IMG/VR virus record: IMGVR_UViG_3300033485_000002
Span: 104,261 to 168,260 of that record
Source: a virus
Length of the DNA stretch: 64,000 bases
Direction: 5' to 3' (one strand)
Below are positions 1,817 through 59,129 of this stretch, piece after piece; positions within the stretch are counted from its first letter, which is position 1, and each line of letters opens with the position of its first letter. The position numbers were made by a program, and so were the translations under genes. Under the pieces are notes generated by a model, which worked only from the letters and a program-made list of their open reading frames with translations, did not search any database and was not told the DNA's origin.

Positions 1817-3685
1817 ATGACCGCCAGGATGGCTAAGCGTCTAACCGAAATTGCCGTAGACCGCATCACCCCGGCTATGGAGAAGACTGTCAAAATGCTT
1901 GACCGCATTATGCGGAACAAGGTCAAGAAGTATGGTGCTTCTCAGCTTGTGACAAAGAGTAAGCGGTTTGGTAAGGATGCCTTTTTCAACGAGTATAAGG
2001 GTAGGGTCATTCGTTTAGGCGGGGGCACTGGCCCGACTGTTCATGTAACTCGTCTTAGAAAGCCAGCTAAGCTGCGTAAGCATAGGGAAATCCCCGGAGG
2101 ACAGTTTGACGATTTGAACAATGCGGTAACTATCAATCCGTCAATTTTTCGGGGCAGCCCAGAGTCGTCACAAAATACTATTGCTCATGAGCTATTTCAT
2201 AGTACAGATCCTGGTGCTTTGATATCAAGAAGTTACAAATTAGGGTCAAAGGGGTACTATCAAGACCCTGCGGAAGTCTCAGCCATAGCTGCAACTGGTT
2301 CATTAAGAACTGTTCGCCATTTTCATCAAAACGATATACCTGACAAAGTTGCCAGGATGAAGATTTCCAGTCGGAACCGAGACGATTGGAGAGATCCCCA
2401 TCTGTGGATGCTAATGCAGAAGAATAGTGGAAGTTCTAAAGTAGAGAGGAAGATCCGTCAAAAGGTGGGGAAGAACCTTCATCGAGCTTATGAGCGGGTA
2501 TACCGCCCCGAGACGTATGTGCCTCGGGCGGTTAAACGGGCGAAGCTGCCCGAGGGGTTGGCTGAAGCCGTTTCCAAGTGGACTCGGCAGGGGTTGCGTC
2601 AGAAGTGGAGCATTTCTCCGACTGTTGATACCCATGTTCCTAATCCGGAATTCGATCAAGTGTTCTCCTTGTGGCAGATGCAGCACCCTCACAAGAAGGT
2701 TGTGGGGAATACTTTGAAGATGGCTAACGAACGTCGTGCGGCTGTGAGTAAACGTAAGAAACTACCGGAGGATATGAACATGCCCGAGCGTGAAGAGCTG
2801 TTAGAGCGTGCCCATGCTTTCTTGAACGAGGGACCAGGAGCCTATGTGAACTCATTGATTGGTATGGCTCCTCATCAGGAGAATCGGGGGCCAACGTATG
2901 AGAAAGCCTACAAAACGTACCAGCACCGGGCAAGAAAAGGAGCGGTGATCGGGGCTGTGACTGGTGCCGCTGCGGGGTTTGCTGGTGGGGCGCTTGCTGG
3001 TGGGATAACTGCGCCTTTTGGAGCTGTGGTTGGGGCACTCGGTGGTGGTGCTGCTGGGAGTGCAATGGGGCAATATTCTGCTTATCGGAAGATAAAAAAA
3101 GCTTCTTACCCGAAACCCGTTAAGCCCACTACCGAAGAGCTTCTCGACCGTGCCGCTGAGTTTTTGAATGAGGTTGTATCTCGGAAGACTAGAGCCGAGT
3201 TGAGTGGGCCGTGGGATGAGCCAGAGGGCAATTACTCATCTCGGGACCATTTGGCATTGTTAGCTAGTAACCCAGGGGACTGGATGGGGTCAAGGGAGCA
3301 ACAAGCGGCTCAGAACACCTTACAGATGAACAAAGAACGAATGGACGCTTATTCTGCTCAGACTGACGCTGCTATTAAGGGTGATTGGTTTAAGGAGCGT
3401 CTTTCGGGTAAAACTCGTAAAGAGATAAAGAATGCTTTTAAACGTTCGGGAGTAGCTTATCCCCATGGACGGCATCCTCGTAAAGATCGTAGAGGTGGTA
3501 GTCTTGACACGCTTATGACCCAATGGCGGAAAGAGCATCCAACGGAAGAGCTATTAACCCAAGCTCGTGCTTTCTTGGATGAAATTGTTGCCCCTCAACC
3601 ATCTCTTTCGCAAAGGGTGGAACGGGCAAAAAAGAAGGGGCCATTGGGTCAGATGTTGGACCCCTACGCCCATGTTAAGTTTTAA
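1817..3685 (+). CDS. basic modular protein, putative internal head polyprotein (HExxH module, glycine zipper, 3x EELLxxAxxFL[ND]E linkers)
   Basis: AHELFH at 2183-2200; linkers at 2792-2830, 3134-3172, 3545-3583; GAVIGAVTGAAAGFAGG zipper; K/R-rich. Confidence 0.75.
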   Translation: MTARMAKRLTEIAVDRITPAMEKTVKMLDRIMRNKVKKYGASQLVTKSKRFGKDAFFNEYKGRVIRLGGGTGPTVHVTRLRKPAKLRKHREIPGGQFDDLNNAVTINPSIFRGSPESSQNTIAHELFHSTDPGALISRSYKLGSKGYYQDPAEVSAIAATGSLRTVRHFHQNDIPDKVARMKISSRNRDDWRDPHLWMLMQKNSGSSKVERKIRQKVGKNLHRAYERVYRPETYVPRAVKRAKLPEGLAEAVSKWTRQGLRQKWSISPTVDTHVPNPEFDQVFSLWQMQHPHKKVVGNTLKMANERRAAVSKRKKLPEDMNMPEREELLERAHAFLNEGPGAYVNSLIGMAPHQENRGPTYEKAYKTYQHRARKGAVIGAVTGAAAGFAGGALAGGITAPFGAVVGALGGGAAGSAMGQYSAYRKIKKASYPKPVKPTTEELLDRAAEFLNEVVSRKTRAELSGPWDEPEGNYSSRDHLALLASNPGDWMGSREQQAAQNTLQMNKERMDAYSAQTDAAIKGDWFKERLSGKTRKEIKNAFKRSGVAYPHGRHPRKDRRGGSLDTLMTQWRKEHPTEELLTQARAFLDEIVAPQPSLSQRVERAKKKGPLGQMLDPYAHVKF

Positions 3686-3700
3686 TGAGGTAATAAGAAG

Positions 3701-4297
3701 ATGAACCCGAACATCGTTAGAGCCGCAGTGACTGCCGTGAAGTCGGGTTCGCATACGCCGAATCATGTGATTGCCCTGCGTAAGGCGCATACCTTCTTGT
3801 CGGCTAACAAGTCCCACGCTTGGAACAAAAGTCCCTCACTCCATCAGGCTTTCAACAAGGTTGGGTTAGGCATAAAGACGGAGAGTGCTATGAGCAAGGA
3901 TAAGGCATTGTTTGCCCAGGTTGTTAACCATCTGATTGAGGAAGAGGGCAAGAAGAAAGCCCGTAAGCCTTGGCCGATCCGGCCCAGTGAGTTGAGCGGG
4001 ATGATCAAAGCCAGCCGTGATAAGAAATGGGGTTATGGGCTTTCGGTGGCGGTGAACCATCCAGAGGTGGGGCAGGTGACCTTCGACAAGTTCTTCAATA
4101 AGCCGAACCAAGTGGGGCACCGGTTGGATACGCGCTCCTTCAGTGATCAGGAGCGGCTTGTGAACTTTCTCAGACGGTATGGAGTGGAGCCTACGATCAA
4201 GGGGCCATCCGCAGGTGGGGAAGCTGCTCCGGTCGGCAAGAAGACCAAGAAGACCAAGAAGCTGAAGGAAACGCTTGATGAGGACCGCGAGTTCTAA
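3701..4297 (+). CDS. basic protein, putative internal head protein
   Basis: GAGGT SD; LFAQVVNHLIEE linker; C-terminal domain paralogous to N-terminus of next gene. Confidence 0.7.
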   Translation: MNPNIVRAAVTAVKSGSHTPNHVIALRKAHTFLSANKSHAWNKSPSLHQAFNKVGLGIKTESAMSKDKALFAQVVNHLIEEEGKKKARKPWPIRPSELSGMIKASRDKKWGYGLSVAVNHPEVGQVTFDKFFNKPNQVGHRLDTRSFSDQERLVNFLRRYGVEPTIKGPSAGGEAAPVGKKTKKTKKLKETLDEDREF

Positions 4298-4299
4298 GC

Positions 4300-6978
4300 A
4301 TGGGCAAGTGGTCGCTTCTTGAGGTTCGAGGCTTCCCGAGCATCACCGGGGAGGAGCTGTTGCAGCTTGTCCAGGATGCTCGGTTCAGGGGCGGGAACAC
4401 ACTCAGCTTCAGGGTGGACATCGATGACCCGGTCAAGGGTTTGTTGTCCTTTCGGCGTTTCCTTGGTAACGGTACCAGTCGAGTCGAGATCCGATCTTTT
4501 GCTAACCGGGACAAGCTGATCGCGTTCCTCGGTGAGCATGGCGTACGTTATAACGTACGGCACCATGTACATGAGGATGTGGGCCACACCTTTACCAGAC
4601 AGGCTACTGGGATTCCTTTCTACGTTAACGGCAACTTTGAAGTTTGTATCGGAAAGCCGGGGCAGTTCCACGCCACGATGAAGGGCTATGAAGCTGATGA
4701 GCGTACCAAGGGCGTGTTCGCCCGTGGTTACTATCATTCGGCAAGGCCGATTCAGGATGTGCCATCTGCGTTGCAGTGGTGGACAGAACATCTGCATGAT
4801 GCCGCAACAATGCAGGAGTTAGAGAGAATAGCGACAGAGGCTTTTGAGAAAAAGGGATACAGGGTGGAAGAGCCTAACTGGTCCAAGTGGTTGAAGAGGC
4901 GCAAAGAGCAAGAGTTTGTGGCACTGCGCAGAGCGGGGAAGGTCATGCAGCGAGAGGGAGCTATCGAACGAGCTGTTGACCAGCTACTCCATGAACATGA
5001 AGCAAAATATACCGGTTATTCTCCATTTGGTGGGGGGATTAGATCTAAAGAAGCACAATCTCATATGAAAAGACTTGGAGGAGAACTTCGTAAGGAGAAG
5101 GGGTTATCATATCTTTTATACCCTGAGTATTACGGCCACTGTGCTCACTGTCGTCAAGATGACAGTAAAATGTGGTTAACGTCGCATAGACAGTGGAGTA
5201 AACTTCCTTTAGAACATCGAGATAAAGTGTTATGTGTGAATTGTTTTCGCAAATTAAGTAATCTAAAAGAAGTACATGATATTACCCAAAAGGTTTATAG
5301 CGAAGCGGTTGACCATTTGCTTGAGGGGGTTCAGGTGACATCAGGTCAAGCTCGACGAGTGGCTGAGCGTATCGGGGCGAATAAGGTTGACCTGGAGCAG
5401 CTCCGTCGAGGGCTTGAGGTTGAGCAGGAGCACGGGGACAAGGACAAGCAGACGGATGTGGTCCCTGGCAAAGATGCTAAAAACCTTGACACCTTCGGCA
5501 AGATCGCCTTGGCTCACCTGAAAGAGATTCCGGACTACTACACCCGGCTCGCCAAGATGGAGAAGGTAGGCAAGAAGGCGGTCAAGGAAGCGGTAGAGCA
5601 TCTGCTTCGTGAAGATTCTATAGCTGACACTCTTCAGACTATGCTTGCGAAACATCGTAGTACAAAGGTTCGGATCAAAAATCGTCCACCGGTACGAGTA
5701 GTTGTCCGTCATAAAGCAACATCTAGATCTCTTACAGGGGCTTATTATCACCCTGGGGAGCAACAGGTATACGTTGGTAAAAAGGGGAAGAAATTTTCGC
5801 CTTTTGAGCGAACAATTTTAGCGCATGAGCTGGGACATCACCGGAATTGGAGCCATGTCCCACTTTCTCCGCAGGGGAAAATGAAAATGGCATCAACTGC
5901 TCAGGCAGCGTACCAAGCTGGGGCGCTTGCAGGTACGGTAGGAGCGCTTGGTGCAAAGACTGATAAACAGGCGAAGGCAGCGGCGACTATTGGCACGGTG
6001 GCGGCATTACCTCGTTATGGGGATGAGGCGTTGGCTAATGCACGTGCGCTTGGGCGTACTGTAGCGAAACACGGAGCGCGGGGGCTTTTAGCAGGTAAAG
6101 CAGGCCCATTACGTGCTGTTGGTGTGAGTATGGCTAGTTATAGCATGTTGCCTGCTATGCCTTGGTTAGCTTATGCCCATCGTCGAGCAATTAGAAAGTC
6201 GGCAAACTATCATGCTCTTCAATCAAGAACCCGGAAACAAATTCAACATGCTGTTCAACATGGGGAGAGCACAAGGCGTTTAGCTAAAAAGTATGATGTG
6301 ACGCGGCGGTCTGTGCGGGCGATGGGCAAGAGTACTCGGACACCTAAGCCATCGTGGCATAGTCATTCTCCTTACTATGGTTATTTTCTTCAAACAGCTA
6401 AAAAGCAACGTCATGGGGTCAAGGAAGCGGTAGAGCATCTGCTTCGTGAAGGCAGGTTCGATTACAAGTCCTCGGTGGGGGTACAGAGTCAGTTTGCCCC
6501 GCAGCAGAAGATGACGTTGCAGAGAGCGGTTAACACGAATAAGTATTCGGCACCGAAGGCTTCACAGCAAGCGGTTAAGCCGCAGGTATCGAAGCAACAG
6601 GAAGTCAAAGAAGCTGCGGATCAGATGCTTGCCGAGGGGTTCTTCAAAGATATGTTGTTCTACGACCTGTCCCGACATCACCCTCGTGCCGGTAGGCGGG
6701 CTGAGCACATGCGTCCAGCGTCTTCAAAGCCTAAGCCAGCTTATGAGCCTATGGGGCGGTATAACCCGGCTACGGTGTATCCGGAAGGGCACCCGATGCA
6801 TCCAGGTACGGTGAAGGCTCCTAGCCCGATAGCAACAACGGCAAGTAGTTCAGCAAAAGCAGGTACGGCAAAGAAGCTTTTTACGCGACGGAGTGCAGCG
6901 GTTTTGGCAGTTCCGCTATTAGCTGTAGGCGGCACGAAAGCGTATGAGGCATGGGCGACTCGTCGTAAGAAAAAGTAG
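4300..6978 (+). CDS. 892-aa modular protein, putative internal head polyprotein (CxxC finger, DUF5661-like, HExxH zincin modules)
   Basis: Five linkers (ERAVDQLLHE, EAVDHLLE, 2x EAVEHLLRE, EAADQMLAE); GLEVEQEH..IALAHLKEIPDYYTRLAKME DUF5661-like motif; AHELGH 5821-5838. Confidence 0.8.
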   Translation: MGKWSLLEVRGFPSITGEELLQLVQDARFRGGNTLSFRVDIDDPVKGLLSFRRFLGNGTSRVEIRSFANRDKLIAFLGEHGVRYNVRHHVHEDVGHTFTRQATGIPFYVNGNFEVCIGKPGQFHATMKGYEADERTKGVFARGYYHSARPIQDVPSALQWWTEHLHDAATMQELERIATEAFEKKGYRVEEPNWSKWLKRRKEQEFVALRRAGKVMQREGAIERAVDQLLHEHEAKYTGYSPFGGGIRSKEAQSHMKRLGGELRKEKGLSYLLYPEYYGHCAHCRQDDSKMWLTSHRQWSKLPLEHRDKVLCVNCFRKLSNLKEVHDITQKVYSEAVDHLLEGVQVTSGQARRVAERIGANKVDLEQLRRGLEVEQEHGDKDKQTDVVPGKDAKNLDTFGKIALAHLKEIPDYYTRLAKMEKVGKKAVKEAVEHLLREDSIADTLQTMLAKHRSTKVRIKNRPPVRVVVRHKATSRSLTGAYYHPGEQQVYVGKKGKKFSPFERTILAHELGHHRNWSHVPLSPQGKMKMASTAQAAYQAGALAGTVGALGAKTDKQAKAAATIGTVAALPRYGDEALANARALGRTVAKHGARGLLAGKAGPLRAVGVSMASYSMLPAMPWLAYAHRRAIRKSANYHALQSRTRKQIQHAVQHGESTRRLAKKYDVTRRSVRAMGKSTRTPKPSWHSHSPYYGYFLQTAKKQRHGVKEAVEHLLREGRFDYKSSVGVQSQFAPQQKMTLQRAVNTNKYSAPKASQQAVKPQVSKQQEVKEAADQMLAEGFFKDMLFYDLSRHHPRAGRRAEHMRPASSKPKPAYEPMGRYNPATVYPEGHPMHPGTVKAPSPIATTASSSAKAGTAKKLFTRRSAAVLAVPLLAVGGTKAYEAWATRRKKK
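5580..5614 (+). repeat. 35-bp exact direct repeat, copy 1
   Basis: ggtcaaggaagcggtagagcatctgcttcgtgaag, identical to 6417-6451. Confidence 0.95.
6417..6451 (+). repeat. 35-bp exact direct repeat, copy 2
   Basis: Identical to 5580-5614; offset 837 bp (279 codons, in frame). Confidence 0.95.
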
Positions 6979-7035
6979 TTTATCTTGTTGGGACTAGCGA
7001 TGTAGCTTTATTCTAGGGAGTATAGGAGACTTAAA

Positions 7036-7839
7036 ATGGCTAAGCAAAAAACTGTATCCTCTAAAGAACATGCAGCGCAAAGTAGAAGGTGGTTAGCCCA
7101 AGTTGGAACAGGGGGACTTGGTGGCTATATGGGGGGGCGTGCTATTGGGTCTGCTATCCCTACTAGTAGTATGACTGCGAAAGCTGCACTTATGACTGCT
7201 GGTGGAGTTGGTGGGGCAGTTGGTGGGTATTATGCTGCCAAATCTCATTTAGGACAGGACTTAAAGCAAATGGAGCGAAGTCCTAATAAGCCAAAGGCAG
7301 CTAAAGCTTTTGCTGCTAATCATCCGGTTGCAGCGGTAATGATCCTGCCGAAGAATAAGTTTCAACAGCAAAAGTTAGCTTCTCGTGGTACTGGTGGGCA
7401 CATAGGGCATGCTCTCCTCCGAAATATGGGGGGCGGCCCAATGAATATTATCCGGTATGGGGCAAAATCCCATTACGCTAAAGCCGGATATTATCGAGAG
7501 GAAGATATGCTTAGAGATGAGCTGATTGAGCAGATTCTAGTAGCTGCTTTAGACGAAGGTAAGCTCCAGGATCTCGATCAAGCGCTTCATCGTCAGCGGA
7601 AGTTTAAGAGCAGGGGGCTTCAGAAGGCTGACAAGTTCTTACACCGCCGCCCAGCACAGGATGTTGGACGAGCTGCCCGTCGTGTGAAGCGTGTTGCTAG
7701 TGGTGCGGCGCATAAGGCTGTCCGTGGGCTGAAACGAACGGATCGTAAGCTGCACCGTTCTTATCAATTTAAGAATAAGGGATTGAAGAAGGTGGACAGG
7801 TTCCTGCATCGGAAGATTGCCGAGGCTGAACTTGCATGA
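7036..7839 (+). CDS. basic glycine-zipper protein, putative internal head protein
   Basis: AGGAG SD; GGLGGYMGG/GGVGGAVGGY zippers; ELIEQILVAALDE linker; duplicated LHRxxxFKxxGLxKxDxFLHR segment. Confidence 0.75.
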   Translation: MAKQKTVSSKEHAAQSRRWLAQVGTGGLGGYMGGRAIGSAIPTSSMTAKAALMTAGGVGGAVGGYYAAKSHLGQDLKQMERSPNKPKAAKAFAANHPVAAVMILPKNKFQQQKLASRGTGGHIGHALLRNMGGGPMNIIRYGAKSHYAKAGYYREEDMLRDELIEQILVAALDEGKLQDLDQALHRQRKFKSRGLQKADKFLHRRPAQDVGRAARRVKRVASGAAHKAVRGLKRTDRKLHRSYQFKNKGLKKVDRFLHRKIAEAELA

Positions 7840-7859
7840 GCGGTAAAGAGTAGTATATT
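7832..7859 (+). promoter_or_regulatory. possible sigma70-type promoter
   Basis: TTGCAT-N16-TATATT upstream of structured RNA and tRNA. Confidence 0.4.
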
Positions 7860-7874
7860 ACCTTTTGAAGGTAA

Positions 7875-7949
7875 GGCAGGTGGGTGTTGGCACAACTGCC
7901 ACCCCGGCCCCCCATATCACCAACACGGGGACCGGGGCCTTCTTTTTTT
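7875..7949 (+). ncRNA. candidate structured RNA (two hairpins with complementary loops, ending in U-tract)
   Basis: Stems GGCAG-GTG/CAC-CTGCC and CCCCGG-CCCC/GGGG-CCGGGG; loop GTGTTGG 7884-7890 complements CCAACAC 7920-7926. Confidence 0.45.
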
Positions 7950-8021
7950 AGGGGCATGGTGTAATCGGTAGCACGCAACACTTTGGATGTTGTGGTTGGG
8001 GTTCAAGTCCCTGTGCCCCTG
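7950..8021 (+). tRNA. tRNA-Gln(UUG)
   Basis: Acceptor AGGGGCA/TGCCCCT; D-arm GTGT/GCAC; anticodon arm CAACA-CTTTGGA-TGTTG; T-loop TTCAAGT; CCA not encoded. Confidence 0.88.
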
Positions 8022-8050
8022 TTTCGGATTTAGTGTGGGGGTCTTTTACT

Positions 8051-8254
8051 ATGGAAAGTGGCAAGATGCTTTACCTTCTTGTGCAACGCACGGAAGTTCT
8101 TCATGGGCATAATGATATCTACGCTGGTGTTTTCGAACTGCGCTCAGATGCGGAAGCGGCTATTGCCCAACAACCTATCAACTTGCGTTGGCAGTTCGTG
8201 ATCTATCCGGTCATGTTTAAGCGGCTACGTACTCCGGAGTATTCGCCTCCGTAG
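8051..8254 (+). CDS. hypothetical protein
   Basis: Small ORF with YAGVFELRSDAEAAI motif typical of small phage proteins. Confidence 0.55.
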   Translation: MESGKMLYLLVQRTEVLHGHNDIYAGVFELRSDAEAAIAQQPINLRWQFVIYPVMFKRLRTPEYSPP

Positions 8255-8274
8255 TCTTTATTGCATGGGGTGGG

Positions 8275-8469
8275 ATGACCAGTTTACTGTACCTCGGGGC
8301 GCTGTTGTTGCTGCTGCTGGTCTGTATCGCTGTCACGAATACCCGCTCCAGTGTTCGTTGCCCTGCTTGTGGGACAATGATGCGGCGGATGGCGAATGCT
8401 GGATGGGGCATGACGCTGTATATCTGTCCTATTTGCAAGAAGTACTTCTATGAAGACGAGGTTGGATAG
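8275..8469 (+). CDS. membrane-anchored zinc-ribbon protein
   Basis: N-terminal hydrophobic helix, then CPACG...CPICK. Confidence 0.6.
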   Translation: MTSLLYLGALLLLLLVCIAVTNTRSSVRCPACGTMMRRMANAGWGMTLYICPICKKYFYEDEVG

Positions 8470-8485
8470 TTGCGGTTGCACGGGC

Positions 8486-8514
8486 TTGACAAAGATGCTC
8501 ACGTCATCTACGAT
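8486..8514 (+). promoter_or_regulatory. sigma70-type promoter
   Basis: TTGACA-N17-TACGAT in an intergenic gap. Confidence 0.65.
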
Positions 8515-8603
8515 TTAGGGGTCATGGGGATGCCCGTTAACGCAGCTAAGAGACCTTGAACCGGCCCGCCGTCAGGCGGGTCTTATCATGAAAGGATGAC
8601 ATT

Positions 8604-8963
8604 ATGAATGTTTATGTGTTGTTTGCGCAACGGAAAGAACGTTTCCCTGGGCAGTACGCCCCGGAAGCCTTGGCAGTGGTGGACGAGTACGTGTTGAACG
8701 ATGACGGGGTCTCTCTCGAAGAGATTCAGAAGCGCACGCTCGAACAGGACAACCCGGATGACTTCGTGTCGGTGAAGTGGGTGATGGTGAAGCTGACGGC
8801 TACTCCCGCTGATATCCGGGAGATGTTGGTCGGCATGCCGACTATCACGGGGGATGTGCCGGTGCCCCCGGAGCACAAAGGGAACCACCCCTCCTATCAG
8901 GGGATGACCGTGACTCAGGGGCGCAAGGGCGGAAAGATCGAAGATTCCGAGATCATTGACTAG
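8604..8963 (+). CDS. hypothetical protein
   Basis: AAGGA SD; G/C-ending codon bias. Confidence 0.7.
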   Translation: MNVYVLFAQRKERFPGQYAPEALAVVDEYVLNDDGVSLEEIQKRTLEQDNPDDFVSVKWVMVKLTATPADIREMLVGMPTITGDVPVPPEHKGNHPSYQGMTVTQGRKGGKIEDSEIID

Positions 8964-8971
8964 GTATCGCT

Positions 8972-9274
8972 ATGGCACAGTATCGACGATATGGCTATGT
9001 GACGACTGTTCGGGTTGAAAGAGATGGGGAATTGGTCGAGGATGCAAACATTGCATTTGACCTCAATCCGGGCTTAGCGAACGATAAGCTTGATGCCGTC
9101 ATCAACAACCGAGTGCATGCAGATGCACACAATAAAGTACTCGAAAATAACATACTTAAGCCTAATGGCGATCTTCAAGGCCAGGAGATTCGTACCGTCT
9201 TAATTCGATGTGCGGATGGTGTGACCCTCCGGTTTTCCATCCAGAGATGGTACGTGGTTGTCGGGAGGGAGTAA
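8972..9274 (+). CDS. hypothetical protein
   Basis: Operon packing. Confidence 0.6.
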   Translation: MAQYRRYGYVTTVRVERDGELVEDANIAFDLNPGLANDKLDAVINNRVHADAHNKVLENNILKPNGDLQGQEIRTVLIRCADGVTLRFSIQRWYVVVGRE

Positions 9275-9278
9275 CACC

Positions 9279-9674
9279 ATGGGGAGCGGGTACTATGAGA
9301 GTGCTTTGCTACGCCTCCGCCGCATCGTGACGTATCTGAACGCGAGGTACAATGATGTTTTCGAGGGGCAAGACATCACGCCAACTCAATTCGAAATTCT
9401 CCTGTTCGTCGAATCCAATGCGCCATGCAGCGTGTCTGCCATAGCGGAGTTCATGCTCGTGGATAAGTCTACCTCGTCGCGAGTTCTCGGGGGCATCCAG
9501 GACAAAGGGCTGGTTCAGATAGAGCGGGATACGGTGGACCGTCGCCGGAATCGAGTGAGTCTGACCCATATGGGGCAGGATGCCGTCACGAGCTTCAAAG
9601 CTGCATGGTTCGAGGTGGAAAAGGGCGTCAAGGGCCAGTACGATAAGGCAATTGAGCATTTGGAACGTTTCTGA
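9279..9674 (+). CDS. MarR-family winged-helix transcriptional regulator
   Basis: ITPTQFEILLFV..SVSAIAEFMLVDKSTSSRVLGGIQDKGLV..DRRRNRVSLTHMG is a typical MarR pattern; GGAGG SD. Confidence 0.9.
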   Translation: MGSGYYESALLRLRRIVTYLNARYNDVFEGQDITPTQFEILLFVESNAPCSVSAIAEFMLVDKSTSSRVLGGIQDKGLVQIERDTVDRRRNRVSLTHMGQDAVTSFKAAWFEVEKGVKGQYDKAIEHLERF

Positions 9675-9690
9675 CCGATAGGAGGCTACT

Positions 9691-9915
9691 GTGTCCGTAC
9701 CGATTGATGTGGTATTCGAGAAGCAGGTGGATAATCATTGGCAACCAGTTCGGAGCGCAGAGTTACGGCCAGGGGACATAGCCAGGATGCGGATGCTCAG
9801 TGGCGAGGTTCTACGGGATGACGCAGGGCGGGAGACGTTTCAAGTAGCCGGGGTGAATGGTCGGGATCCAGATTCTAAGTCACAATTCGATGTCAGTCTC
9901 GAACCAATGGTATAG
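9691..9915 (+). CDS. hypothetical protein
   Basis: AGGAGG SD before GTG. Confidence 0.65.
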   Translation: MSVPIDVVFEKQVDNHWQPVRSAELRPGDIARMRMLSGEVLRDDAGRETFQVAGVNGRDPDSKSQFDVSLEPMV

Positions 9916-9923
9916 GGGGCACA

Positions 9924-10178: not shown

Positions 10179-10201
10179 CCACTCCCAAGATGGGATTTAG
10201 G

Positions 10202-10232: not shown

Positions 10233-10252
10233 GCGATGGGAGGCGGCTTTAG

Positions 10253-12141: not shown

Positions 12142-12145
12142 TCAC

Positions 12146-41381: not shown

Positions 41382-43154
41382 ATGGCTTCGCCGCTTGTAA
41401 ATGGTTTGATGCGTCTGACTCGGTTGGACAAGATTCTCCAGCAGGAGATGGCGGTACGCGCCCAACTTGGCGGTATCCCCACGCAGATGGCAGGGAGCGA
41501 TGATCTAGTTGGCGATTTGGCTGTTATTGAGGAAGCCCTCAGCCAGTTCAACATGATCACCCGCATGCACCGTGAACGACGGTTGCGGTACCAAGATTAT
41601 GACGCCATGGACAACTATGGTGATGTGTCGGTTGCCTTGGATATCTATGCGGAAGAAGCTACCCAAACTGATCTGATGCAAGAGACCAATCTGTGGATTA
41701 CCGGGGAACAGCGAGATGATGTCGAGGAGATGGTTCAGCGGTTGCACCTGCGGACCATGGTCCAAGGGTTTGCTCGACAGCTTGCCAAGTATGGAGATGT
41801 GTTTCAAAGCTTACGGTACAACTATGAAGGGTTGGACCGGATTCTGTATCTTCCCCCACAGTATGTCCATCGGATCGGTCCTAGCATTGACCTTGTGAAG
41901 TTCTTCAAGATTGACTCCCAGTTAGGCAAGGTTTCTCCCCGAGGGGATAACCTCCTTCTGCCGTGGGAGTGTGCTCACTTCCGCATCCTGTCTTTTGGGT
42001 TTTCGGTTCTGTATGGTCGCTCGATGTTGGAGCCTGCCCGTAAGCGGTGGCTTCATCTTAAACTGCTTGAAGATGCCGTTGCTATCTATCGTTTGAATCG
42101 GGCTGTTGAGCGGTTGATTTTCTATGTGGACGTTGGTGCGGCTTCGCCGCAGGAAGCGCTCCGCATGGTTAACCAGTACAAGCGGAAGTTCGGGAACAAG
42201 CGGTCGTACATCGATCCTTCGACGAGCACGTTCGAGCAGCAGTATGATCCGACCAACATGTTGGAGAACATCTTCTGGCCGGTGAACAGTGCTACGGAGC
42301 GTTCTCGGATCGAAAAGCTCGCTCCTCCTCCGGACCAAGGACAGCTCCAGGATCTAGCCCACTTTAACGAGAAGCTCTACGTTGCGCTCGGTATCCCGCG
42401 TGACTTTCTAACAGGGGAAACGACTGGTACCTGGAATAGCCGGGAGTCTCTGGCTCTTCAGGACATTCGGTTCTCTCGTAAGCTGCACCGGTTGCAAACG
42501 GCGTTACTAGAGGGGCTGGAGATGTTGGCCCGGTTCCACCTTGCTGTGAAGTACGGTAGTGCGGAGCAAGCTCAGGAAGCTGATTTCCAGATTCATCTTG
42601 CCGACGTATCCAAGATTGCCCGTCAGCAGTATGACCAGATTGTCCTGAACCGAGTACAGATGATGACCATGTTGAATGACATGGGCACTCAGATGAACTT
42701 CAATCGGGAAGTGTGGGTGAAGTGGATCCTGGCGAACTACTTCCCGGATCTCCCGAAGGAGATGATCGAGCAGTTGGTTGTGCCGGATGCCGCTTTGGCA
42801 CAAGCGCATCAAGAGATGGCTGATATGGCACGGCCAGTTATGGCTCCTCCGCAGGCTGCGTCAGCGAAATCTAAACCTAAACCTAAAGCGAAGACAGCCA
42901 AAAAGAAGACCCATGAGGAGATTATCGAGGGTGTAGTTGATAGGCTGCTTCAGCGAAATGTAGTTGAGGAAGATATCAATAGCATCGGGGATATCCTCGC
43001 TAATTGGCAGCCTGCGGATTTATCTATGACTTTGTTAGAGTCTGAGCGGCATCAGATCCCGGTTGAATGGCTCGAAGGTGCAGCGCAGCAATATAGTCGT
43101 TCATCTAATGCCCCCATCAAGAAGATCACAGAGACTGAACTTCTCGTGGAGTAG
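41382..43154 (+). CDS. portal protein (T4 gp20-like)
   Basis: YGRSMLEPARKRW..LKLLEDAVAIYRL.RAVERLIFYVDVG; ALDIYAEEA; DIRFSRKLHRLQ. Confidence 0.93.
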   Translation: MASPLVNGLMRLTRLDKILQQEMAVRAQLGGIPTQMAGSDDLVGDLAVIEEALSQFNMITRMHRERRLRYQDYDAMDNYGDVSVALDIYAEEATQTDLMQETNLWITGEQRDDVEEMVQRLHLRTMVQGFARQLAKYGDVFQSLRYNYEGLDRILYLPPQYVHRIGPSIDLVKFFKIDSQLGKVSPRGDNLLLPWECAHFRILSFGFSVLYGRSMLEPARKRWLHLKLLEDAVAIYRLNRAVERLIFYVDVGAASPQEALRMVNQYKRKFGNKRSYIDPSTSTFEQQYDPTNMLENIFWPVNSATERSRIEKLAPPPDQGQLQDLAHFNEKLYVALGIPRDFLTGETTGTWNSRESLALQDIRFSRKLHRLQTALLEGLEMLARFHLAVKYGSAEQAQEADFQIHLADVSKIARQQYDQIVLNRVQMMTMLNDMGTQMNFNREVWVKWILANYFPDLPKEMIEQLVVPDAALAQAHQEMADMARPVMAPPQAASAKSKPKPKAKTAKKKTHEEIIEGVVDRLLQRNVVEEDINSIGDILANWQPADLSMTLLESERHQIPVEWLEGAAQQYSRSSNAPIKKITETELLVE

Positions 43155-55768: not shown

Positions 55769-56134
55769 ATGGAACCTCGTCGTGTCACTCAGGCTAAAGT
55801 TGTTCCGGGTCAATCTGTGACTCGGTTCCATCTTGCGATGGACAACTCGATGTTGCCAGATGACACGACTGAGCTTCATGTGGCCCACCACACGTCCGGT
55901 GATCTGTCCGAACCGGCTGATTGGTACAATATTTACGAGCATCCAACTGAGTGGCAGCTCGAACTTGCTCGTATTGGCCTCAATATCGACAAAGAGGACT
56001 GGACGATTCTTGAGCATATGCTCGGGAGTTTCAAATGGGTGCTGTATAAGCATACTGCCGATCCTCATCGAGCCGAAATTCGTGTTGACGTGTCTGCCAT
56101 GAAACGTGGTGAGTGGACCACGACGTATTTCTAG
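55769..56134 (+). CDS. hypothetical protein
   Basis: Operon packing. Confidence 0.65.
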   Translation: MEPRRVTQAKVVPGQSVTRFHLAMDNSMLPDDTTELHVAHHTSGDLSEPADWYNIYEHPTEWQLELARIGLNIDKEDWTILEHMLGSFKWVLYKHTADPHRAEIRVDVSAMKRGEWTTTYF

Positions 56135-56144
56135 GAGATCGCTG

Positions 56145-57701
56145 ATGACAGACCTGATCGAAGTCATGCCCTTCAGCTACCAGATTCTGGAATCTGCTAA
56201 TGGGCGTTTTCGTGTCGAGGGTGTGTTCCAGCGGTCAGACGTGGAGAACGCCAACAAGCGGGTTTACCCGCGTAGCATCTGGGAACGAGAACTTAAAGAG
56301 CCGCGTGTTACCGAGTCTTTAACAAACCGGGCGATGTTCGGTGAACTGGACCACCCTTCGGATGGGAAAACCTCCCTTAAGCGTGTGTCCCACATCGTGA
56401 CGGGTTTGAATCTTCAGGATGACGGCTCGGTTATCGGTGTTGCCGAAGTTCTAGGCACTCCAAACGGACAAATTCTGAAGACACTCTTTGAATCCGGTGC
56501 TCAAGTGGGCATCAGTTCCCGTGGATCCGGGAGTGTTCAGAACGGTGTAGTTCAGGAGGACTTCAAGCTCAGCACATTCGACTTTGTAGCGCGACCTTCT
56601 ACTCCAGGTGCGCTCCCCCGCCTTGCGGGGGAAGTTAGTCGGCGAGGGAGTAAGACCGAAGACGTAACGGATGCTTCAACTGAAGTTGAAGTTGTCGATG
56701 TGATGGATGTTGACCTCTTTAACAGGCTCCAAAAAGAGCTAGCAACGTTAGAGGAAGGTCTTGATACTAACATCGACTTCAATACGTTAGCTCGTTCGGT
56801 TATCGAGCTTCATAATCTGGTCGAAGGACTCGATGCCATTACACCGAAAATGCGGTCGAGCCTGAATGAGCACATTCTCGTTCTCAGTGGCGAACTTACT
56901 CGGTTGGCTGCTGAATCACCTGAGCACCAAACGATCGTGGCAGAGTTGTTGAAGAAAGTCGAAGAGAGTCTTGAGGCCGTAATCATTCGGCCCACGAATA
57001 CTAGTGTTAAGGAGGAACCCATGGATAGGCTTCAATTCATTAAGGATCGACTCCAGGAAGCCGAGCTGGAAGCTACGGTGGATGCCACTGAAGCGGAAAT
57101 GCAGCTCGCGGCGGAAGTCGATGAGCTGCGCCAAAATCTTGAAGCCCTCGACGACGACGAGCTGGTCGATGTGGCCCTCGAAGTCGGGGTGATCTCTCCG
57201 GACGACCTCGAAGAGGATGACGATACCAGCGCCGACGACGATAGCGGAGAGACCGTTACCGTTCAGGATCTGCTCGATTATATCGAGGAGCTGGAAGGTC
57301 AAGTTGGAGAGGCGGCGGAGCTGATCGAGGGTATGGCTGCGCAACTGGAAGAGTCGGACGATAGCGACGATCTTACGCTCAAGTACGAGGCGGCTCTCGG
57401 CATCATTCAAGAGACGGTTACCCGTTACCACTTCCTGCAAGAGGCAGTTGGTGGTGAGGAGCGGGCCAACAAGCTGATGGAGAACCTTCTCCAGCGGCTG
57501 GAGTCCGACGATGAGGATGACGACGAGGACGACGAGGACGAGAAGCCCAAGAAGAAGAAGGGCAAGAAGGAAGAGTCGCTCGATGAGGCTGTTGCGGAAG
57601 TCGAGAAGCTTCTGAGCGAGGATGGTGACGGCCCCGACAAGAACATGCTTCGGTATAAGGAACTCGCTGAGAGTGTCCGCAAGAGTACCGGACTTAACTA
57701 G
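56145..57701 (+). CDS. prohead protease (T4 gp21-like) fused to acidic scaffold
   Basis: NANKRVYP, GELDHP, VSH, TPNGQI, GISSRGSGS, DFVARPS motifs; acidic coiled-coil C-terminus; AGGAG SD. Confidence 0.92.
   Translation: MTDLIEVMPFSYQILESANGRFRVEGVFQRSDVENANKRVYPRSIWERELKEPRVTESLTNRAMFGELDHPSDGKTSLKRVSHIVTGLNLQDDGSVIGVAEVLGTPNGQILKTLFESGAQVGISSRGSGSVQNGVVQEDFKLSTFDFVARPSTPGALPRLAGEVSRRGSKTEDVTDASTEVEVVDVMDVDLFNRLQKELATLEEGLDTNIDFNTLARSVIELHNLVEGLDAITPKMRSSLNEHILVLSGELTRLAAESPEHQTIVAELLKKVEESLEAVIIRPTNTSVKEEPMDRLQFIKDRLQEAELEATVDATEAEMQLAAEVDELRQNLEALDDDELVDVALEVGVISPDDLEEDDDTSADDDSGETVTVQDLLDYIEELEGQVGEAAELIEGMAAQLEESDDSDDLTLKYEAALGIIQETVTRYHFLQEAVGGEERANKLMENLLQRLESDDEDDDEDDEDEKPKKKKGKKEESLDEAVAEVEKLLSEDGDGPDKNMLRYKELAESVRKSTGLN
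57021..57701 (+). CDS. nested in-frame scaffold protein (internal start)
   Basis: TAAGGAGG-AACCC-ATG at 57021, in frame; codon bias shifts to MCP-like from here. Confidence 0.65.
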   Translation: MDRLQFIKDRLQEAELEATVDATEAEMQLAAEVDELRQNLEALDDDELVDVALEVGVISPDDLEEDDDTSADDDSGETVTVQDLLDYIEELEGQVGEAAELIEGMAAQLEESDDSDDLTLKYEAALGIIQETVTRYHFLQEAVGGEERANKLMENLLQRLESDDEDDDEDDEDEKPKKKKGKKEESLDEAVAEVEKLLSEDGDGPDKNMLRYKELAESVRKSTGLN

Positions 57702-57737: not shown

Positions 57738-59129
57738 ATGACTCAAGAACTCCACGCTATGGGAGAAATGGGAAGGGCACTTGCCAATGGTAAGTGGCGT
57801 CCGCTCGTCGAGTCGATCGAGGATAAGGCCACTCGCGAACTGACCGCTGTTCTCCTGGAGAACGAGCGCCGCTACATCGACATGCTCGATGAGGACGTGC
57901 GGATCCAGAGCATCGGTTCGTTCGAGAAGTTTGTTTTCCCGATCGTTCGTGCGGTATTCCCCAACCTGATTGCCAAGGACATCGTCTCTGTGCAGCCGAT
58001 GACTGGCCCCACTTCCCTTGTGTTCTACCTTGACGCTGTCTATGGTACGACCAAGGGTGGTGTTACCGCTGGTGACACCATGTTCAGTGCCCGTAAGGGC
58101 CACCTCGCTGACGACCAGTACTCGTCCGAGGCGATTACCGGTGAGACTCTGGTGACTGCGGCGGATGCTGGCGGTCAGACTGTTATCCCGGCTTCGGCTG
58201 CTGATTTCGGTTCCGTTCGTCCCGGTACGTTCTCCATGTCGGGTGTTGTGACTGGTACGGATGTGGTTTGGACCGCGACGGACAATGGTGTTGGTGGTTT
58301 CACGTTCAGCGGGAACACTGCTTCCCCCGCTCCGACCATCAATTATGCGACTGGTGTGGTTACCACCTTCACGTTGGGTACTGCCCAGAAGGCTGCGACG
58401 GCCATTACCTGCAACTACTACTACAATTCCGAGGGTTCGGCCAACATCCCGATCGTGGACATCAACCTGTCCAGCGTTCCGGTGCGGGCGATTCCCCACA
58501 AGCTGCGTGCTCGTTGGTCCGTTGAGGCGGCTACCAACCTCAAGGCGATTCATGGTATGGACGCCGAGAGCGAGCTGGTTGCCCTCCTGTCCGAGAAGAT
58601 CCGCTGGGACATCGACCGGCGCATCCTTTCCGACCTGTTCACCATCGCGAGCGCCGGGTCTGTGACCTGGAACAAGCCCGCTCCGGCTGCCGTGTCGTAC
58701 AACGACCACAAGCAGACCTTCATCGACGCCCTGATCGAGGCTTCGAACCTCATCTTCCGGGCGACTCGTCGGGGTACTGGTAACTTCGTGGTTTGCGGCA
58801 CCAACGTCAGCAACGTGGTCGAGTCCCTCTACGGGTTCCGTCCGCAGGCTGTGGCCGGTAATGGCGTCGTGTTCGTCGGTACCCTTCAGGGCCGGTGGTC
58901 GATCTACAAGGATCCGTACATGGACGCTGACACGTTCCTCGTCGGTTGGAAGGGCAACTCCTTCCTTGAGGCCGGGTATGTGTTCGCTCCGTACGTTCCG
59001 CTGTACACCACCCCGACCTACGTGCTGGATGACATGCTGAACCGCAAGGGGATGATGTCCCAGTACGGTGTGAAGGCCATTAATGGTGATTTCTACGCGA
59101 CGGGGACCGTGACTTACACCGTTGTGTAG
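57738..59129 (+). CDS. major capsid protein (T4 gp23-like)
   Basis: AVLLENE, PIVRAVFPNLIAKDIVSVQPMTGPTSLVFYL, KLRARWS.E, HGMDAESEL, GYVFAPYVPL; TAAGGAGG SD. Confidence 0.96.
   Translation: MTQELHAMGEMGRALANGKWRPLVESIEDKATRELTAVLLENERRYIDMLDEDVRIQSIGSFEKFVFPIVRAVFPNLIAKDIVSVQPMTGPTSLVFYLDAVYGTTKGGVTAGDTMFSARKGHLADDQYSSEAITGETLVTAADAGGQTVIPASAADFGSVRPGTFSMSGVVTGTDVVWTATDNGVGGFTFSGNTASPAPTINYATGVVTTFTLGTAQKAATAITCNYYYNSEGSANIPIVDINLSSVPVRAIPHKLRARWSVEAATNLKAIHGMDAESELVALLSEKIRWDIDRRILSDLFTIASAGSVTWNKPAPAAVSYNDHKQTFIDALIEASNLIFRATRRGTGNFVVCGTNVSNVVESLYGFRPQAVAGNGVVFVGTLQGRWSIYKDPYMDADTFLVGWKGNSFLEAGYVFAPYVPLYTTPTYVLDDMLNRKGMMSQYGVKAINGDFYATGTVTYTVV

What the first reader, a model, noticed from the sequence alone, without database searches (positions are those of the whole stretch)
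5580..6451. Exact 35-bp direct repeat of linker DNA flanks an in-frame 279-codon cargo cassette
Seen: ggtcaaggaagcggtagagcatctgcttcgtgaag occurs at 5580-5614 and 6417-6451, identical even at wobble positions. It encodes VKEAVEHLLRE and brackets the HExxH module, whose codons look more A/T-ending than the module upstream. Recombination between the copies would delete the cassette and leave the frame and one linker intact. Inference: cargo is gained and lost by recombination at linker DNA, like a cassette array inside one ORF.
Basis: partly seen in the sequence, partly recalled or inferred. Interest (0 to 1): 0.85.

Follow-up and report, generated by a model that had tools for sequence, protein, structure and literature searches.

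The report
Linker-bounded cargo cassette in phage polyprotein
One gene of a large uncultured T4-type phage strings together at least six unrelated protein modules joined by a repeated short helix, and one module looks like a recent foreign insert flanked by an exact 35-base copy of the linker DNA, which suggests modules are swapped at the linkers.

Summary
The 35-mer occurs exactly twice (5580-5614 and 6417-6451), 837 bases (279 codons) apart, in frame, inside an 892-aa ORF (4300-6978). Apart from the contig's overlapping ends, it is the longest exact direct repeat in the 168-kb genome. Identical codon choice by chance has P about 7e-6. A second sample carries the same arrangement.

The ORF has six modules joined by five copies of the helix xEAVxxLLxE; the other three copies differ at synonymous sites. 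An unsupervised GC3 segmentation places breaks inside the first 35-mer copy and within 2 codons of the second (module D GC3 0.36, flanks 0.76 and 0.55). Module B is a second low-GC3 island between linkers.

Relatives differ at the linkers. P0005 has C, one linker, then F. P0007 has a D-like module before C. D homologues also occur as stand-alone phage genes.

The phage has T4-type portal, prohead protease and capsid genes, and every linker ends in L-x-E, the T4 gp21 cleavage motif. I read it as a polyprotein of basic virion cargo with capsid-targeting-like linkers. Cleavage and packaging are inferred only.

No D-less allele or excised circle was found. I rate it a new variant of known kinds. 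First-stage notes of this scan on the same genome made the same point; nothing similar was seen on other DNA.

The parts
4300..6978 (+). 892-aa multi-module ORF (P0001), pI 10.1, with architecture A-l1-B-l2-C-L3-D-L4-E-l5-F
   Evidence: no full-length homologue other than the near-identical P0002
4300..4968 (+). Module A (aa 1-223), unknown function, GC3 0.63. Its aa 39-87 are paralogous to aa 116-167 of the upstream gene.
4969..4998 (+). Linker 1 (ERAVDQLLHE), diverged at the DNA level from the other linkers
4999..5298 (+). Module B (aa 234-333), a Cys4 zinc-ribbon-like module and a low-GC3 island (0.26)
5299..5328 (+). Linker 2 (SEAVDHLLEG)
5329..5579 (+). Module C (aa 344-427), Pfam DUF5661, an all-helical domain with GC3 0.68
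   Evidence: E 9.2e-15; pLDDT 88.5; the last helix runs on into linker 3; no PDB fold match
5580..5614 (+). Linker 3 (VKEAVEHLLRE), copy 1 of the exact 35-bp direct repeat
5615..6416 (+). Module D (aa 439-706), the cassette. It has HELGH plus a conserved distal Glu and Gly/Ala-rich hydrophobic helices, then a weak HTH-like tail. GC3 0.36, pI 11.3.
   Evidence: stand-alone homologues P0008, P0035, P0075 and P0090; only weak peptidase leads
6417..6451 (+). Linker 4 (VKEAVEHLLRE), copy 2 of the exact 35-bp direct repeat
6452..6603 (+). Module E (aa 718-768), a short Q/K-rich segment with GC3 0.69
6604..6636 (+). Linker 5 (VKEAADQMLAE), 22 of 33 nt identical to L3/L4
6637..6975 (+). Module F (aa 780-892), a conserved FFKD..HHPR.GRRA.HMRP..GRYNP..YP module with a C-terminal hydrophobic helix. 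It directly follows a linker in relatives.
3701..4297 (+). Upstream gene (198 aa). Its N-terminal X module is fused to C/F-type modules in relatives P0005, P0006, P0010, P0145 and P0007. It has a linker-like AQVVNHLIEEE and is separated from the 892-aa ORF by TAA-gc-ATG in another frame.
56106..57701 (+). T4 gp21-type prohead protease (Peptidase_S77) fused to an acidic scaffold-like C-terminal region. It is the candidate enzyme for cutting after L-x-E.
57738..59129 (+). T4 gp23-type major capsid protein. Three of its five L/I-x-E sites lie in the first 52 aa, ahead of the start of the Gp23 profile match.
41382..43154 (+). T4 gp20-type portal protein

Best explanation
ORF 4300-6978 belongs to a large uncultured phage with T4-type head genes. 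It encodes a chain of unrelated basic modules (A to F) joined by a conserved acidic amphipathic helix (K-E-A-V-D/E-x-L-L-x-E). Module D, a candidate zinc metallopeptidase, is a recently acquired and compositionally foreign cassette. It entered in frame at a linker, so it now sits between two copies of the linker DNA that are still identical at every synonymous site. Homologous recombination at linker-coding DNA, probably by the phage's own RecA/UvsX-type machinery, is the most likely route by which modules are inserted, replaced and (predicted) deleted. Crossing-over between the two 35-mers would remove exactly 279 codons and leave one intact linker. The linkers probably act like T4 capsid-targeting or propeptide signals. 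Each ends in L-x-E, the T4 gp21 cleavage motif, so the prohead protease would cut the polyprotein into separate basic cargo proteins inside the capsid. Shown here: the repeat, the mosaic composition, the different module content of relatives with breakpoints at linkers, and the T4-type protease, capsid and portal genes. Inferred: the recombination mechanism, packaging into the virion and cleavage at the linkers.
For: 1. The repeat is exact. Chance identity has P = 6.6e-6, while the other linkers share only 12-22 of 33 nt. It is the longest internal exact repeat in the genome.

2. The BIC-best GC3 segmentation puts breaks after codons 219, 357, 429 and 705. The linkers lie at 224-233, 334-343, 428-438 and 707-717. 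Segment GC3 values are 0.63, 0.29, 0.76, 0.36 and 0.55. The codon shift is seen in 16 of 17 amino-acid families for D and 13 of 14 for B. The same test finds no break in four of six other genes of the family; the two breaks it does find, in w12065 and P0145, were not tied to linkers. Only 8 of 113 ORFs in the genome have GC3 below 0.45. The stand-alone D homologue P0008 has GC3 0.68 in its own genome.

3. Relatives differ at linkers. In P0005, C is followed by one linker (VSEAVEQLDE) and then F, and that one linker aligns to both L3 and L5. P0007 has at least four KEAVDxLL linkers and a different module order. P0005, P0145 and P0007 each end in a dangling linker motif. P0005 and P0007 look like positional counterparts of this locus, judged by neighbouring gene lengths and Pfam families only.

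4. The motif occurs five times in this ORF and nowhere else in six frames of the 168 kb.

5. T4-type head genes are present: Peptidase_S77 E 2.5e-18, Gp23 E 2.5e-67, Portal_T4 E 3e-47. The T4 literature states that gp21 cuts after L/I-x-E, that internal proteins are highly basic, and that they share only a roughly 10-aa N-terminal CTS (MKTYQEFIAE) that can carry any cargo (PMC9026906, PMC3012670, PMC8442874). Here the modules have pI 9.3-11.3 and the linkers pI 4.1-6.0. All five linkers end in L-x-E.

6. The phage encodes a RecA/UvsX-like recombinase.

7. The arrangement is reproduced in a second sample.
Against: No allele lacking D was seen. All six recorded contigs of the cluster encode 892 aa, and the search over 490-1561 aa returned no shorter near-identical form. 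The degenerate linker DNA pattern was not found in viral contigs or metagenome contigs, although the phage's own records may be left out of those scans. Only a handful of relatives exist, and DNA is held for only three of the relatives' loci. Module B is equally low in GC3, yet its flanking linkers are diverged. So low GC3 is not a reliable clock, and an exact flanking repeat is not a constant product of insertion. Two neighbouring genes of the same basic cluster also have GC3 0.40, so low GC3 may mark a class of modules rather than a single foreign donor. L/I-x-E is a short motif and is only mildly enriched (z 1.6 in this ORF). There is no sequence homology to T4 internal proteins. The gene lies 35-50 kb from the head genes. 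Some relatives carry linker motifs at the C-terminus without the final Glu, which does not fit a simple N-terminal leader model.
Confidence: 0.55

Rival explanations
1. Concerted evolution only. D has been in place for a long time, and linkers 3 and 4 were made identical later by a short gene-conversion tract between two pre-existing similar linkers. In that case the repeat is not a scar of insertion.
For: Module B is just as atypical in composition but has diverged flanking linkers. This shows that cassettes can sit between non-identical linkers. The phage has its own recombinase.
Against: The identity is confined to exactly the 35 nt and is complete, while D still shows unameliorated codon usage. 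Conversion between 33-nt tracts that were already diverged would be inefficient. Even so, this rival still involves recombination at linker DNA, so it differs from the best explanation only in timing.
Confidence: 0.2
2. Self-processing polyvalent protein. The linkers are spacers or cleavage sites for the protein's own HExxH module or modules, as proposed for zincin-like metallopeptidase domains of phage polyvalent proteins. The prohead protease and capsid targeting play no part.
For: Module D has HELGH plus a conserved Glu 66 residues downstream, preceded by two predicted strands. The neighbouring gene 1817 and relative P0007 also carry HExxH modules. Iyer et al. 2017 describe zincin-like peptidases as the commonest hub domain of polyvalent proteins and predict autoprocessing (PMC5512222). 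Atlas structure rows list several zinc-peptidase families at TM 0.31-0.47, which are leads only.
Against: No peptidase family is matched significantly. The best results are Pfam DUF6647 at E 0.007, below its cut-off, and a PDB profile hit at E 0.2. The D model has low confidence in the catalytic part. Relatives such as P0005 keep the linker without any HExxH module. None of the typical polyvalent-protein domains was detected.
Confidence: 0.2
3. The 35-mer is conserved because the nucleotide sequence itself functions, for example as an internal promoter, a ribosome-binding site, an RNA structure or a protein-binding site, and not because of recombination.
For: Identity at every synonymous site is what nucleotide-level selection would also produce.
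Against: No promoter-like or terminator-like site overlaps either copy. The sequence occurs nowhere else in the genome. The other three linkers encode the same kind of peptide with different codons. This rival also does not explain why composition switches exactly at the repeat.
Confidence: 0.03
4. Assembly artefact or chance. The cassette belongs to another genome and was joined in at a shared k-mer, or the identity is coincidental.
For: The record is a metagenome assembly, and the insert has a different composition.
Against: An independent sample gave the same arrangement over 17 kb with 1 SNP. The exact protein is recorded on 4 contigs and its one-residue variant on 2. The insert is in frame. 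Chance identity has P = 6.6e-6.
Confidence: 0.02

Closest known systems
T4 internal proteins (IPI, IPII, IPIII) with their capsid targeting sequence, and gp21 processing
   Same: The phage has gp20-, gp21- and gp23-type head genes. The cargo is highly basic and mutually unrelated, and the modules share only a roughly 10-residue amphipathic peptide ending in L/I-x-E. The literature states that T4 internal proteins are a diverse set sharing only the CTS, and that the CTS can load any protein (PMC3012670, PMC9026906, PMC8442874).
   Different: In T4 each internal protein is a separate gene with the CTS at its N-terminus. Here up to six cargo modules lie in one reading frame and the signal-like peptide is internal and repeated. 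There is no sequence homology to T4 internal proteins or to the CTS. Packaging and cleavage are untested.
PeSL-mediated modular shuffling in T4-type phages (Arbiol et al. 2010, PMC2839356; PMC4122927)
   Same: Short conserved repeats flank insertions, deletions and replacements of accessory genes in T4-type genomes. Recombination between them is proposed to excise and insert cassettes, without any dedicated integrase.
   Different: PeSLs are intergenic promoter plus stem-loop elements that move whole genes. Here the repeat is coding linker DNA inside an ORF, moves protein modules in frame, and has no promoter or terminator features. Mini-circles were demonstrated for PeSLs but not here.
Polyvalent proteins of phages and conjugative elements (Iyer et al. 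2017, PMC5512222)
   Same: One phage polypeptide combines many unrelated modules, including HExxH modules, with extensive mosaicism between relatives. They are proposed to be delivered with the DNA and processed into pieces.
   Different: None of the characteristic domains (ArdC-N, methyltransferases, helicases, ART, MuF and others) was detected, and the peptidase assignment is not significant. That paper's text does not use the words 'linker' or 'shuffling' (0 occurrences each), so a conserved repeated linker peptide or flanking DNA repeats are not a stated theme there.
Multiply cleaved head and inner-body proteins of giant phages (phiKZ, 201phi2-1, SPN3US)
   Same: Diverged gp21-type proteases cut many head proteins after Glu at short motifs, sometimes at several sites in one protein (PMC9026906).
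   Different: Those motifs are reported for propeptides and paralogous inner-body proteins, not for chains of unrelated cargo joined by a conserved helix. The capsid protein here is at most 37% identical to that of any cultured phage.

Membership tests
T4-type CTS-bearing, gp21-processed internal head proteins | The phage encodes a gp21-family prohead protease together with gp20-type portal and gp23-type capsid proteins | tested here: met
   PF03420 at 66.7 bits, E 2.5e-18; PF07068 at E 2.5e-67; PF07230 at E 3e-47
T4-type CTS-bearing, gp21-processed internal head proteins | A short (10-19 aa) targeting peptide ending in L/I-x-E immediately precedes the mature cargo | tested here: inconclusive
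   All five linkers end in L-x-E and precede a module. However, they are internal rather than N-terminal, the motif is short (z 1.6), and some relatives end in linker motifs that lack the Glu.
T4-type CTS-bearing, gp21-processed internal head proteins | The cargo is basic | tested here: met
   Modules have pI 9.3-11.3, the whole protein 10.1 and the linkers 4.1-6.0
T4-type CTS-bearing, gp21-processed internal head proteins | The protein is present in the capsid and cut by the prohead protease | not testable with these tools
   This needs virion proteomics. The phage is uncultured and has no close cultured relative.
T4-type CTS-bearing, gp21-processed internal head proteins | Sequence homology to known internal proteins or to the CTS | tested here: not met
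   No PHROG or Pfam head-protein family was matched, and tblastn found no match in 50,697 phage records
Polyvalent proteins (Iyer et al. 2017) | Several unrelated domains in one polypeptide of a phage or plasmid | tested here: met
   There are six modules. Four (C, D, F and X in the neighbouring gene) recur in other combinations in relatives.
Polyvalent proteins (Iyer et al. 2017) | A zincin-like metallopeptidase domain (HExxH helix plus distal Glu after a small beta sheet) | tested here: inconclusive
   HELGH and a conserved Glu 66 residues later are invariant in 5 sequences, and two strands are predicted before the HExxH helix. No significant profile or fold match was obtained.
Polyvalent proteins (Iyer et al. 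2017) | Known conflict domains (ArdC-N, DNA methyltransferase, SNF2, ART, MuF and others) | tested here: not met
   Only DUF5661 passes in Pfam
PeSL regulatory cassettes | The repeat consists of an early promoter plus a stem-loop terminator between genes | tested here: not met
   Zero promoter-like sites in 4200-7100, and no terminator-like site at either copy. The repeat is coding.
PeSL regulatory cassettes | Repeats flank indels between related phages, and no dedicated recombinase is present | tested here: met
   Indel ends relative to P0005 fall in linkers. No integrase scores above the family cut-off, and a RecA/UvsX-like gene is present.
Integron gene cassettes | IntI-type tyrosine recombinase plus attI/attC sites | tested here: not met
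   The best PF00589 match in the genome scores 13.8 bits, below the cut-off of 27.1. The repeat is a direct, coding repeat with no imperfect palindrome.
Inteins or other in-frame selfish inserts | Hint or homing-endonuclease domains, and splice-junction residues | tested here: not met
   No Hint, LAGLIDADG or HNH family was matched in the ORF. D has stand-alone homologues.

The most novel reading that the evidence does not exclude
The linker has two roles. As a peptide it is a capsid-targeting and prohead-protease cleavage signal. As DNA it is the homology patch at which any 'linker plus cargo' unit can be recombined in or out in frame. The phage would then keep an exchangeable array of injected proteins inside a single reading frame. 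This would be a protein-level counterpart of gene-cassette arrays that needs no integrase and no promoters, and the locus would throw off D-less and D-carrying variants at measurable frequency during every infection.
Probability: 0.3. Interest if true: 0.8.

Novelty: new variant of a known kind. Interest (0 to 1): 0.6.

Why it matters
If the reading is right, it shows a simple way for phages to diversify the proteins they inject with their DNA. Each cargo would carry a short peptide that loads it into the capsid and marks where it is cut free, and the DNA for that peptide would double as the recombination site. New cargo could then be added in frame without needing its own promoter, start codon or packaging signal. 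That would extend the T4 capsid-targeting principle, which is already used to load foreign proteins into T4 heads (PMC9026906, PMC8442874), from single genes to polyproteins. It would also extend repeat-mediated modular shuffling in T4-type genomes (PMC2839356) from genes to protein domains. In practice, the linker motif could serve as a search handle for finding injected anti-defence proteins in uncultured phages. It also suggests a natural design for loading several cargo proteins into one capsid.

Tried and rejected
- **Full-length relatives.** None was found in 50,697 phage records, in the 5.8-billion-protein word search apart from the near-identical P0002, or in IMG/VR.
- **Flanking genes and the F-module alignment as probes for related loci.** These returned nothing in viral contigs. 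In metagenome contigs they returned only the contig already held as L004.
- **Modules A+B and module X in longer proteins.** No homologues were found.
- **Degenerate DNA pattern for the KEAVEHLLRE linker.** There were no matches in viral contigs or metagenome contigs, so no deletion junction, circle junction or shared linker DNA was seen. The phage's own records may be excluded from these scans.
- **DNA of the two most informative relatives (P0005, P0007).** It is not held, so synteny rests on gene lengths and Pfam labels alone.
- **Structure of D from a 5-sequence alignment.** The mean pLDDT was 59, and below 50 across residues 1-61 and 63-98, which include the HExxH helix, so I did not use the model for fold search. 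The profile search against PDB and Pfam gave nothing significant.
- **Structure of C (DUF5661).** The model is confident (pLDDT 88.5) but has no PDB fold match.
- **Atlas look-ups of A and D.** These gave only weak leads.
- **Predicted complex of the protease domain (aa 1-200) with the linker-3 segment (aa 412-452).** The tool gave no verdict, so this counts neither for nor against binding.
- **L/I-x-E enrichment.** It is mild everywhere (z 0.9-2.7) and not decisive.
- **Repoila et al. 1994 (PMC395341) on T-even internal-protein locus polymorphism.** The paper is not held. What I say about it rests on citing papers and on my own recollection.
- **Explanations rejected:** intein, integron, PeSL, ribosomal bypass over 837 nt, codon-bias coincidence and misassembly. 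Reasons are given under the rival explanations and the membership tests.
Full report
**1. Observation**

There is no further match with up to three mismatches, and none of 100 shuffles gave a match. The start-to-start distance is 837 nt, which is 279 codons.

Both copies lie in frame in ORF 4300-6978 (892 aa, P0001) and encode VKEAVEHLLRE at residues 428-438 and 707-717. The flanks on either side of the two copies are unrelated, so identity ends sharply.

Using the genome's own codon usage, two independent encodings of this peptide would coincide with probability 6.6e-6. Apart from an imperfect overlap of the contig ends, this is the longest exact direct repeat in the whole 168,260-bp record; the next longest is 26 nt.

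An independent contig from another JGI sample (L005) matches the window at 99.994% over 17 kb. It carries the same ORF with one SNP and both 35-mers. The exact protein is on record from four contigs and its one-residue variant from two.

**2. Anatomy of the gene**

The same kind of peptide (x-E/R-A-V/A-D/E-H/Q-L/M-L-x-E) occurs five times in the protein, at residues 224-233, 334-343, 428-438, 707-717 and 769-779. It occurs nowhere else in the six frames of the 168 kb. These linkers cut the protein into six modules.

| Module | Residues | Description | pI |
|---|---|---|---|
| A | 1-223 | No relatives found | 9.3 |
| B | 234-333 | Cys4 zinc-ribbon-like | 9.3 |
| C | 344-427 | Pfam DUF5661, E 9e-15 | 9.3 |
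| D | 439-706 | HELGH plus a conserved distal Glu, Gly/Ala-rich hydrophobic helices and a weak HTH-like tail | 11.3 |
| E | 718-768 | Q/K-rich | 10.2 |
| F | 780-892 | Conserved motif block plus a C-terminal hydrophobic helix | 10.7 |

The modules are basic and the linkers are acidic (pI 4.1-6.0).

A confident model of C (pLDDT 88.5) shows its last helix running on through linker 3, so the linker is helical. The fold has no PDB match.

At the DNA level the other linker pairs share only 12-22 of 33 nt. Linkers 3 and 4 share 33 of 33 plus one base on each side. A different linker family in the neighbouring gene (EELLxRAxxFLNE, three copies) is also diverged at synonymous sites. Exact identity is therefore special to this one pair.

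**3. Mosaic composition**

GC3 by module is A 0.63, B 0.26, C 0.68, D 0.36, E 0.69 and F 0.50. The genome mean is about 0.60 with sd 0.11.

I ran an unsupervised Bernoulli segmentation of third-position G+C, choosing the number of segments by BIC. It prefers five segments, with breaks after codons 219, 357, 429 and 705. The two breaks that bound D fall inside linker 3 and two codons before linker 4. The two that bound B fall 5 codons before linker 1 and 14 codons after linker 2.

The shift is not an amino-acid effect. D has lower GC3 than A+C+E in 16 of 17 amino-acid families (Fisher P = 3e-13), and B in 13 of 14 (P = 9e-13).

The same procedure finds no break in four of six other genes of this family. 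The two breaks it does find, in w12065 and P0145, were not tied to linkers. A stand-alone D homologue has GC3 0.68 in its own genome. Only 8 of 113 long ORFs in the genome fall below 0.45.

One caution applies. Two of those eight are neighbouring basic genes (7036 and 10253). Low GC3 may therefore mark a pool of exchangeable modules rather than one foreign donor.

**4. Relatives**

An exhaustive HMMER search of 1.84 billion representatives gave 1021 hits. Nearly all are to the widespread DUF5661 module, but a few are informative.

- **P0005 (286 aa)** is X-C-linker-F. Its single linker (VSEAVEQLDE) aligns to both linker 3 and linker 5 of the query. Relative to it, the query carries D-linker-E-linker as an insertion whose ends lie in linkers.
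- **P0006** is X-C-F, with only 'ISE' at the junction.
- **P0145** is X-...-linker-F.
- **P0010** is X-C followed by a different, membrane-like module.
- **P0007 (1295 aa)** has an HExxH module, X, a second D-like HExxH module, then linker-C-linker-membrane module-linker-tail. It has at least four KEAVDxLL linkers, and its D-like module lies before C rather than after it.
- **D homologues** also exist as stand-alone 178-293-aa phage genes (P0008, P0035, P0075, P0090).
- **Dangling linkers.** P0005, P0145 and P0007 each end with a dangling linker-like motif.

Module X is the N-terminus of the gene just upstream in the window (3701-4297). That gene is separated from the 892-aa ORF by TAA-gc-ATG in another frame. 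It also holds a paralogue of part of A (E 1e-5).

Judged only by the lengths and Pfam labels of neighbouring genes, P0007 and P0005 sit at the same genomic position as the window's 1817/3701/4300 block. The pattern is a Metallophos gene followed by five or six small ORFs upstream, and a roughly 120-aa ORF plus a 131-aa MarR gene plus 72-84-aa ORFs downstream. The DNA of those two contigs is not held, so this synteny is suggestive only.

**5. What kind of phage, and what the linkers may do**

All long ORFs lie on one strand. The record is an IMG/VR virus contig. It encodes the following head and recombination genes.

| Gene | Window or genome position | Family | E-value |
|---|---|---|---|
| Portal, T4 gp20-type | window 41382-43154 | PF07230 | 3e-47 |
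| Prohead protease, gp21-type, fused to an acidic scaffold-like region | window 56106-57701 | PF03420 | 2.5e-18 |
| Major capsid protein, gp23-type | window 57738-59129 | PF07068 | 2.5e-67 |
| RecA/UvsX-like recombinase | genome 75070-75786 | PF00154 | 4.9e-47 |

The capsid protein is at most 37% identical to that of any cultured phage.

The T4 literature establishes four relevant points.
- gp21 cuts after the short motif L/I-x-E.
- T4 internal proteins are highly basic, mutually unrelated, and share only a roughly 10-residue N-terminal capsid targeting sequence (MKTYQEFIAE) that is cut off after its Glu.
- That peptide will load any fused protein into the head.

These come from PMC9026906, PMC3012670 and PMC8442874.

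All five linkers here end in L-x-E (LHE, LLE, LRE, LRE, LAE). The linker family of the neighbouring gene ends in LNE or LDE, and even the linker-less junction of P0006 reads ISE. In the capsid protein, three of the five L/I-x-E sites lie in the first 52 residues, ahead of the start of the Gp23 profile match at residue 60.

My best reading is that the gene, and probably the whole cluster of basic genes from 1817 to 12856, encodes capsid-internal cargo. The linkers would be targeting and cleavage signals, and the prohead protease would release the modules. This step is inference: the motif is short, its enrichment is mild (z 1.6), there is no homology to T4 internal proteins, and no proteomics exists.

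A rival reading is that the HExxH modules process the protein themselves, as proposed for polyvalent proteins (PMC5512222). The peptidase nature of D rests on HELGH, an invariant Glu 66 residues later, and a strand-strand-helix pattern. No profile or fold match is significant.

**6. How the repeat arose and what it does**

The exact repeat, the sharp switch in composition at its edges and the relatives that lack D together point to a recent in-frame insertion of D at a linker. That event left, or created, two identical linker copies.

Three routes could give this result.
- A double crossover with a donor polyprotein that had the same linker on both sides of D.
- Single-crossover integration of a circular 'D + linker' intermediate.
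- Later homogenisation of two similar linkers by gene conversion (a rival, 0.2).

I cannot tell these apart. Module B shows that cassettes can also lie between diverged linkers.

The phage has no tyrosine integrase above the family cut-off, and the repeat has no promoter or terminator features. Any exchange would therefore depend on general homologous recombination, for which the phage has its own recombinase.

The nearest documented mechanism is PeSL-mediated shuffling in T4-type phages. There, short conserved intergenic repeats flank indels and give rise to mini-circles without a dedicated recombinase (PMC2839356). The difference here is that the repeat is coding, lies inside an ORF and moves protein modules in frame.

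Recombination between the two 35-mers would delete exactly 279 codons and restore a C-linker-E junction. This is a prediction, not an observation. No D-less form is on record among the six contigs of the cluster or in the search over 490-1561 aa, and the linker pattern was not found on other DNA.

**7. Verdict**

Gain of a cargo module at linker DNA, and variation of modules at linkers among relatives, are well supported. Ongoing loss, circles and the cassette-array analogy remain untested.

The feature is a new variant of known kinds: T4 CTS-tagged internal proteins, polyvalent proteins and repeat-mediated modular shuffling. It is not a member of any of them by the tests I could run.

First-stage notes of this scan on the same genome (e1-5727213, e1-5727215, e1-5727217) proposed the L/I-x-E linker idea and the zincin modules. 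I tested parts of these here. Nothing comparable was seen on other DNA.

Noticed in passing
window 3701-4297 and 4300-6978: The N-terminal 'X' module of the 198-aa upstream gene is fused to DUF5661/F-type modules in relatives P0005, P0006, P0010, P0145 and P0007. Here it is a separate gene, ending TAA-gc-ATG in another frame. Its aa 116-167 are a paralogue of aa 39-87 of module A (E 1e-5). The locus looks like a hotspot of gene fission, fusion and module duplication.
   Followed up: partly
window 1817-3685, 7036-7839, 10253-11701, 11731-12141, 12065-12856: A cluster of very basic genes (pI 10.2-11.6) with glycine-zipper hydrophobic stretches and their own linker or leader families: EELLxRAxxFLNE three times in 1817, and an N-terminal MTHEEMRQELIEAIIDE in 11731. 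Gene 1817 also has an HExxH module (IAHELFH). Genes 7036 and 10253 are among the 8 lowest-GC3 genes of the genome.
   Followed up: partly
genome 1-641 versus 167617-168260 (window 63357-64000): The two ends of the 168,260-bp record match each other at about 96.5% in two blocks (166 and 212 nt) with a non-matching middle. This is an imperfect wrap-around, so the genome may be close to complete at about 167.6 kb, although CheckV estimates 77%.
   Followed up: partly
window 56106-57701: The gp21-type prohead protease domain (aa 35-169) is fused to a roughly 330-aa highly acidic, coiled-coil-like region with 14 L/I-x-E sites. Near its end is a linker-like SLDEAVAEVEKLLSEDG. It looks like a protease-scaffold fusion.
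   Followed up: partly
window 32172-33023 and 33064-33519: Tandem paralogous genes about 65% identical at the DNA level. The first has an internal duplication. They share the second-longest exact repeat of the genome (26 nt at 32538 and 33397).
   Followed up: partly
window 7949-8022: A tRNA-Gln (anticodon TTG) lies just downstream of the polyprotein cluster's 7036 gene.
   Followed up: no
window 9258-9674: A MarR-family regulator gene (131-138 aa) sits inside the cluster. A MarR gene of the same length lies at the corresponding place next to relative P0005, which suggests conserved synteny.
   Followed up: partly
window 5329-5579 (module C): DUF5661 gives a confident all-helical model (pLDDT 88.5) with invariant E-x-E-H-G and A-H-L-x-E-x-P-D-Y-Y motifs, but has no PDB fold match and is not mentioned in any held paper. 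It has about a thousand hits (1021 at E <= 0.001), mostly roughly 100-aa proteins. Two hits from the earlier word search are fused to amino-acid/polyamine antiporters.
   Followed up: partly
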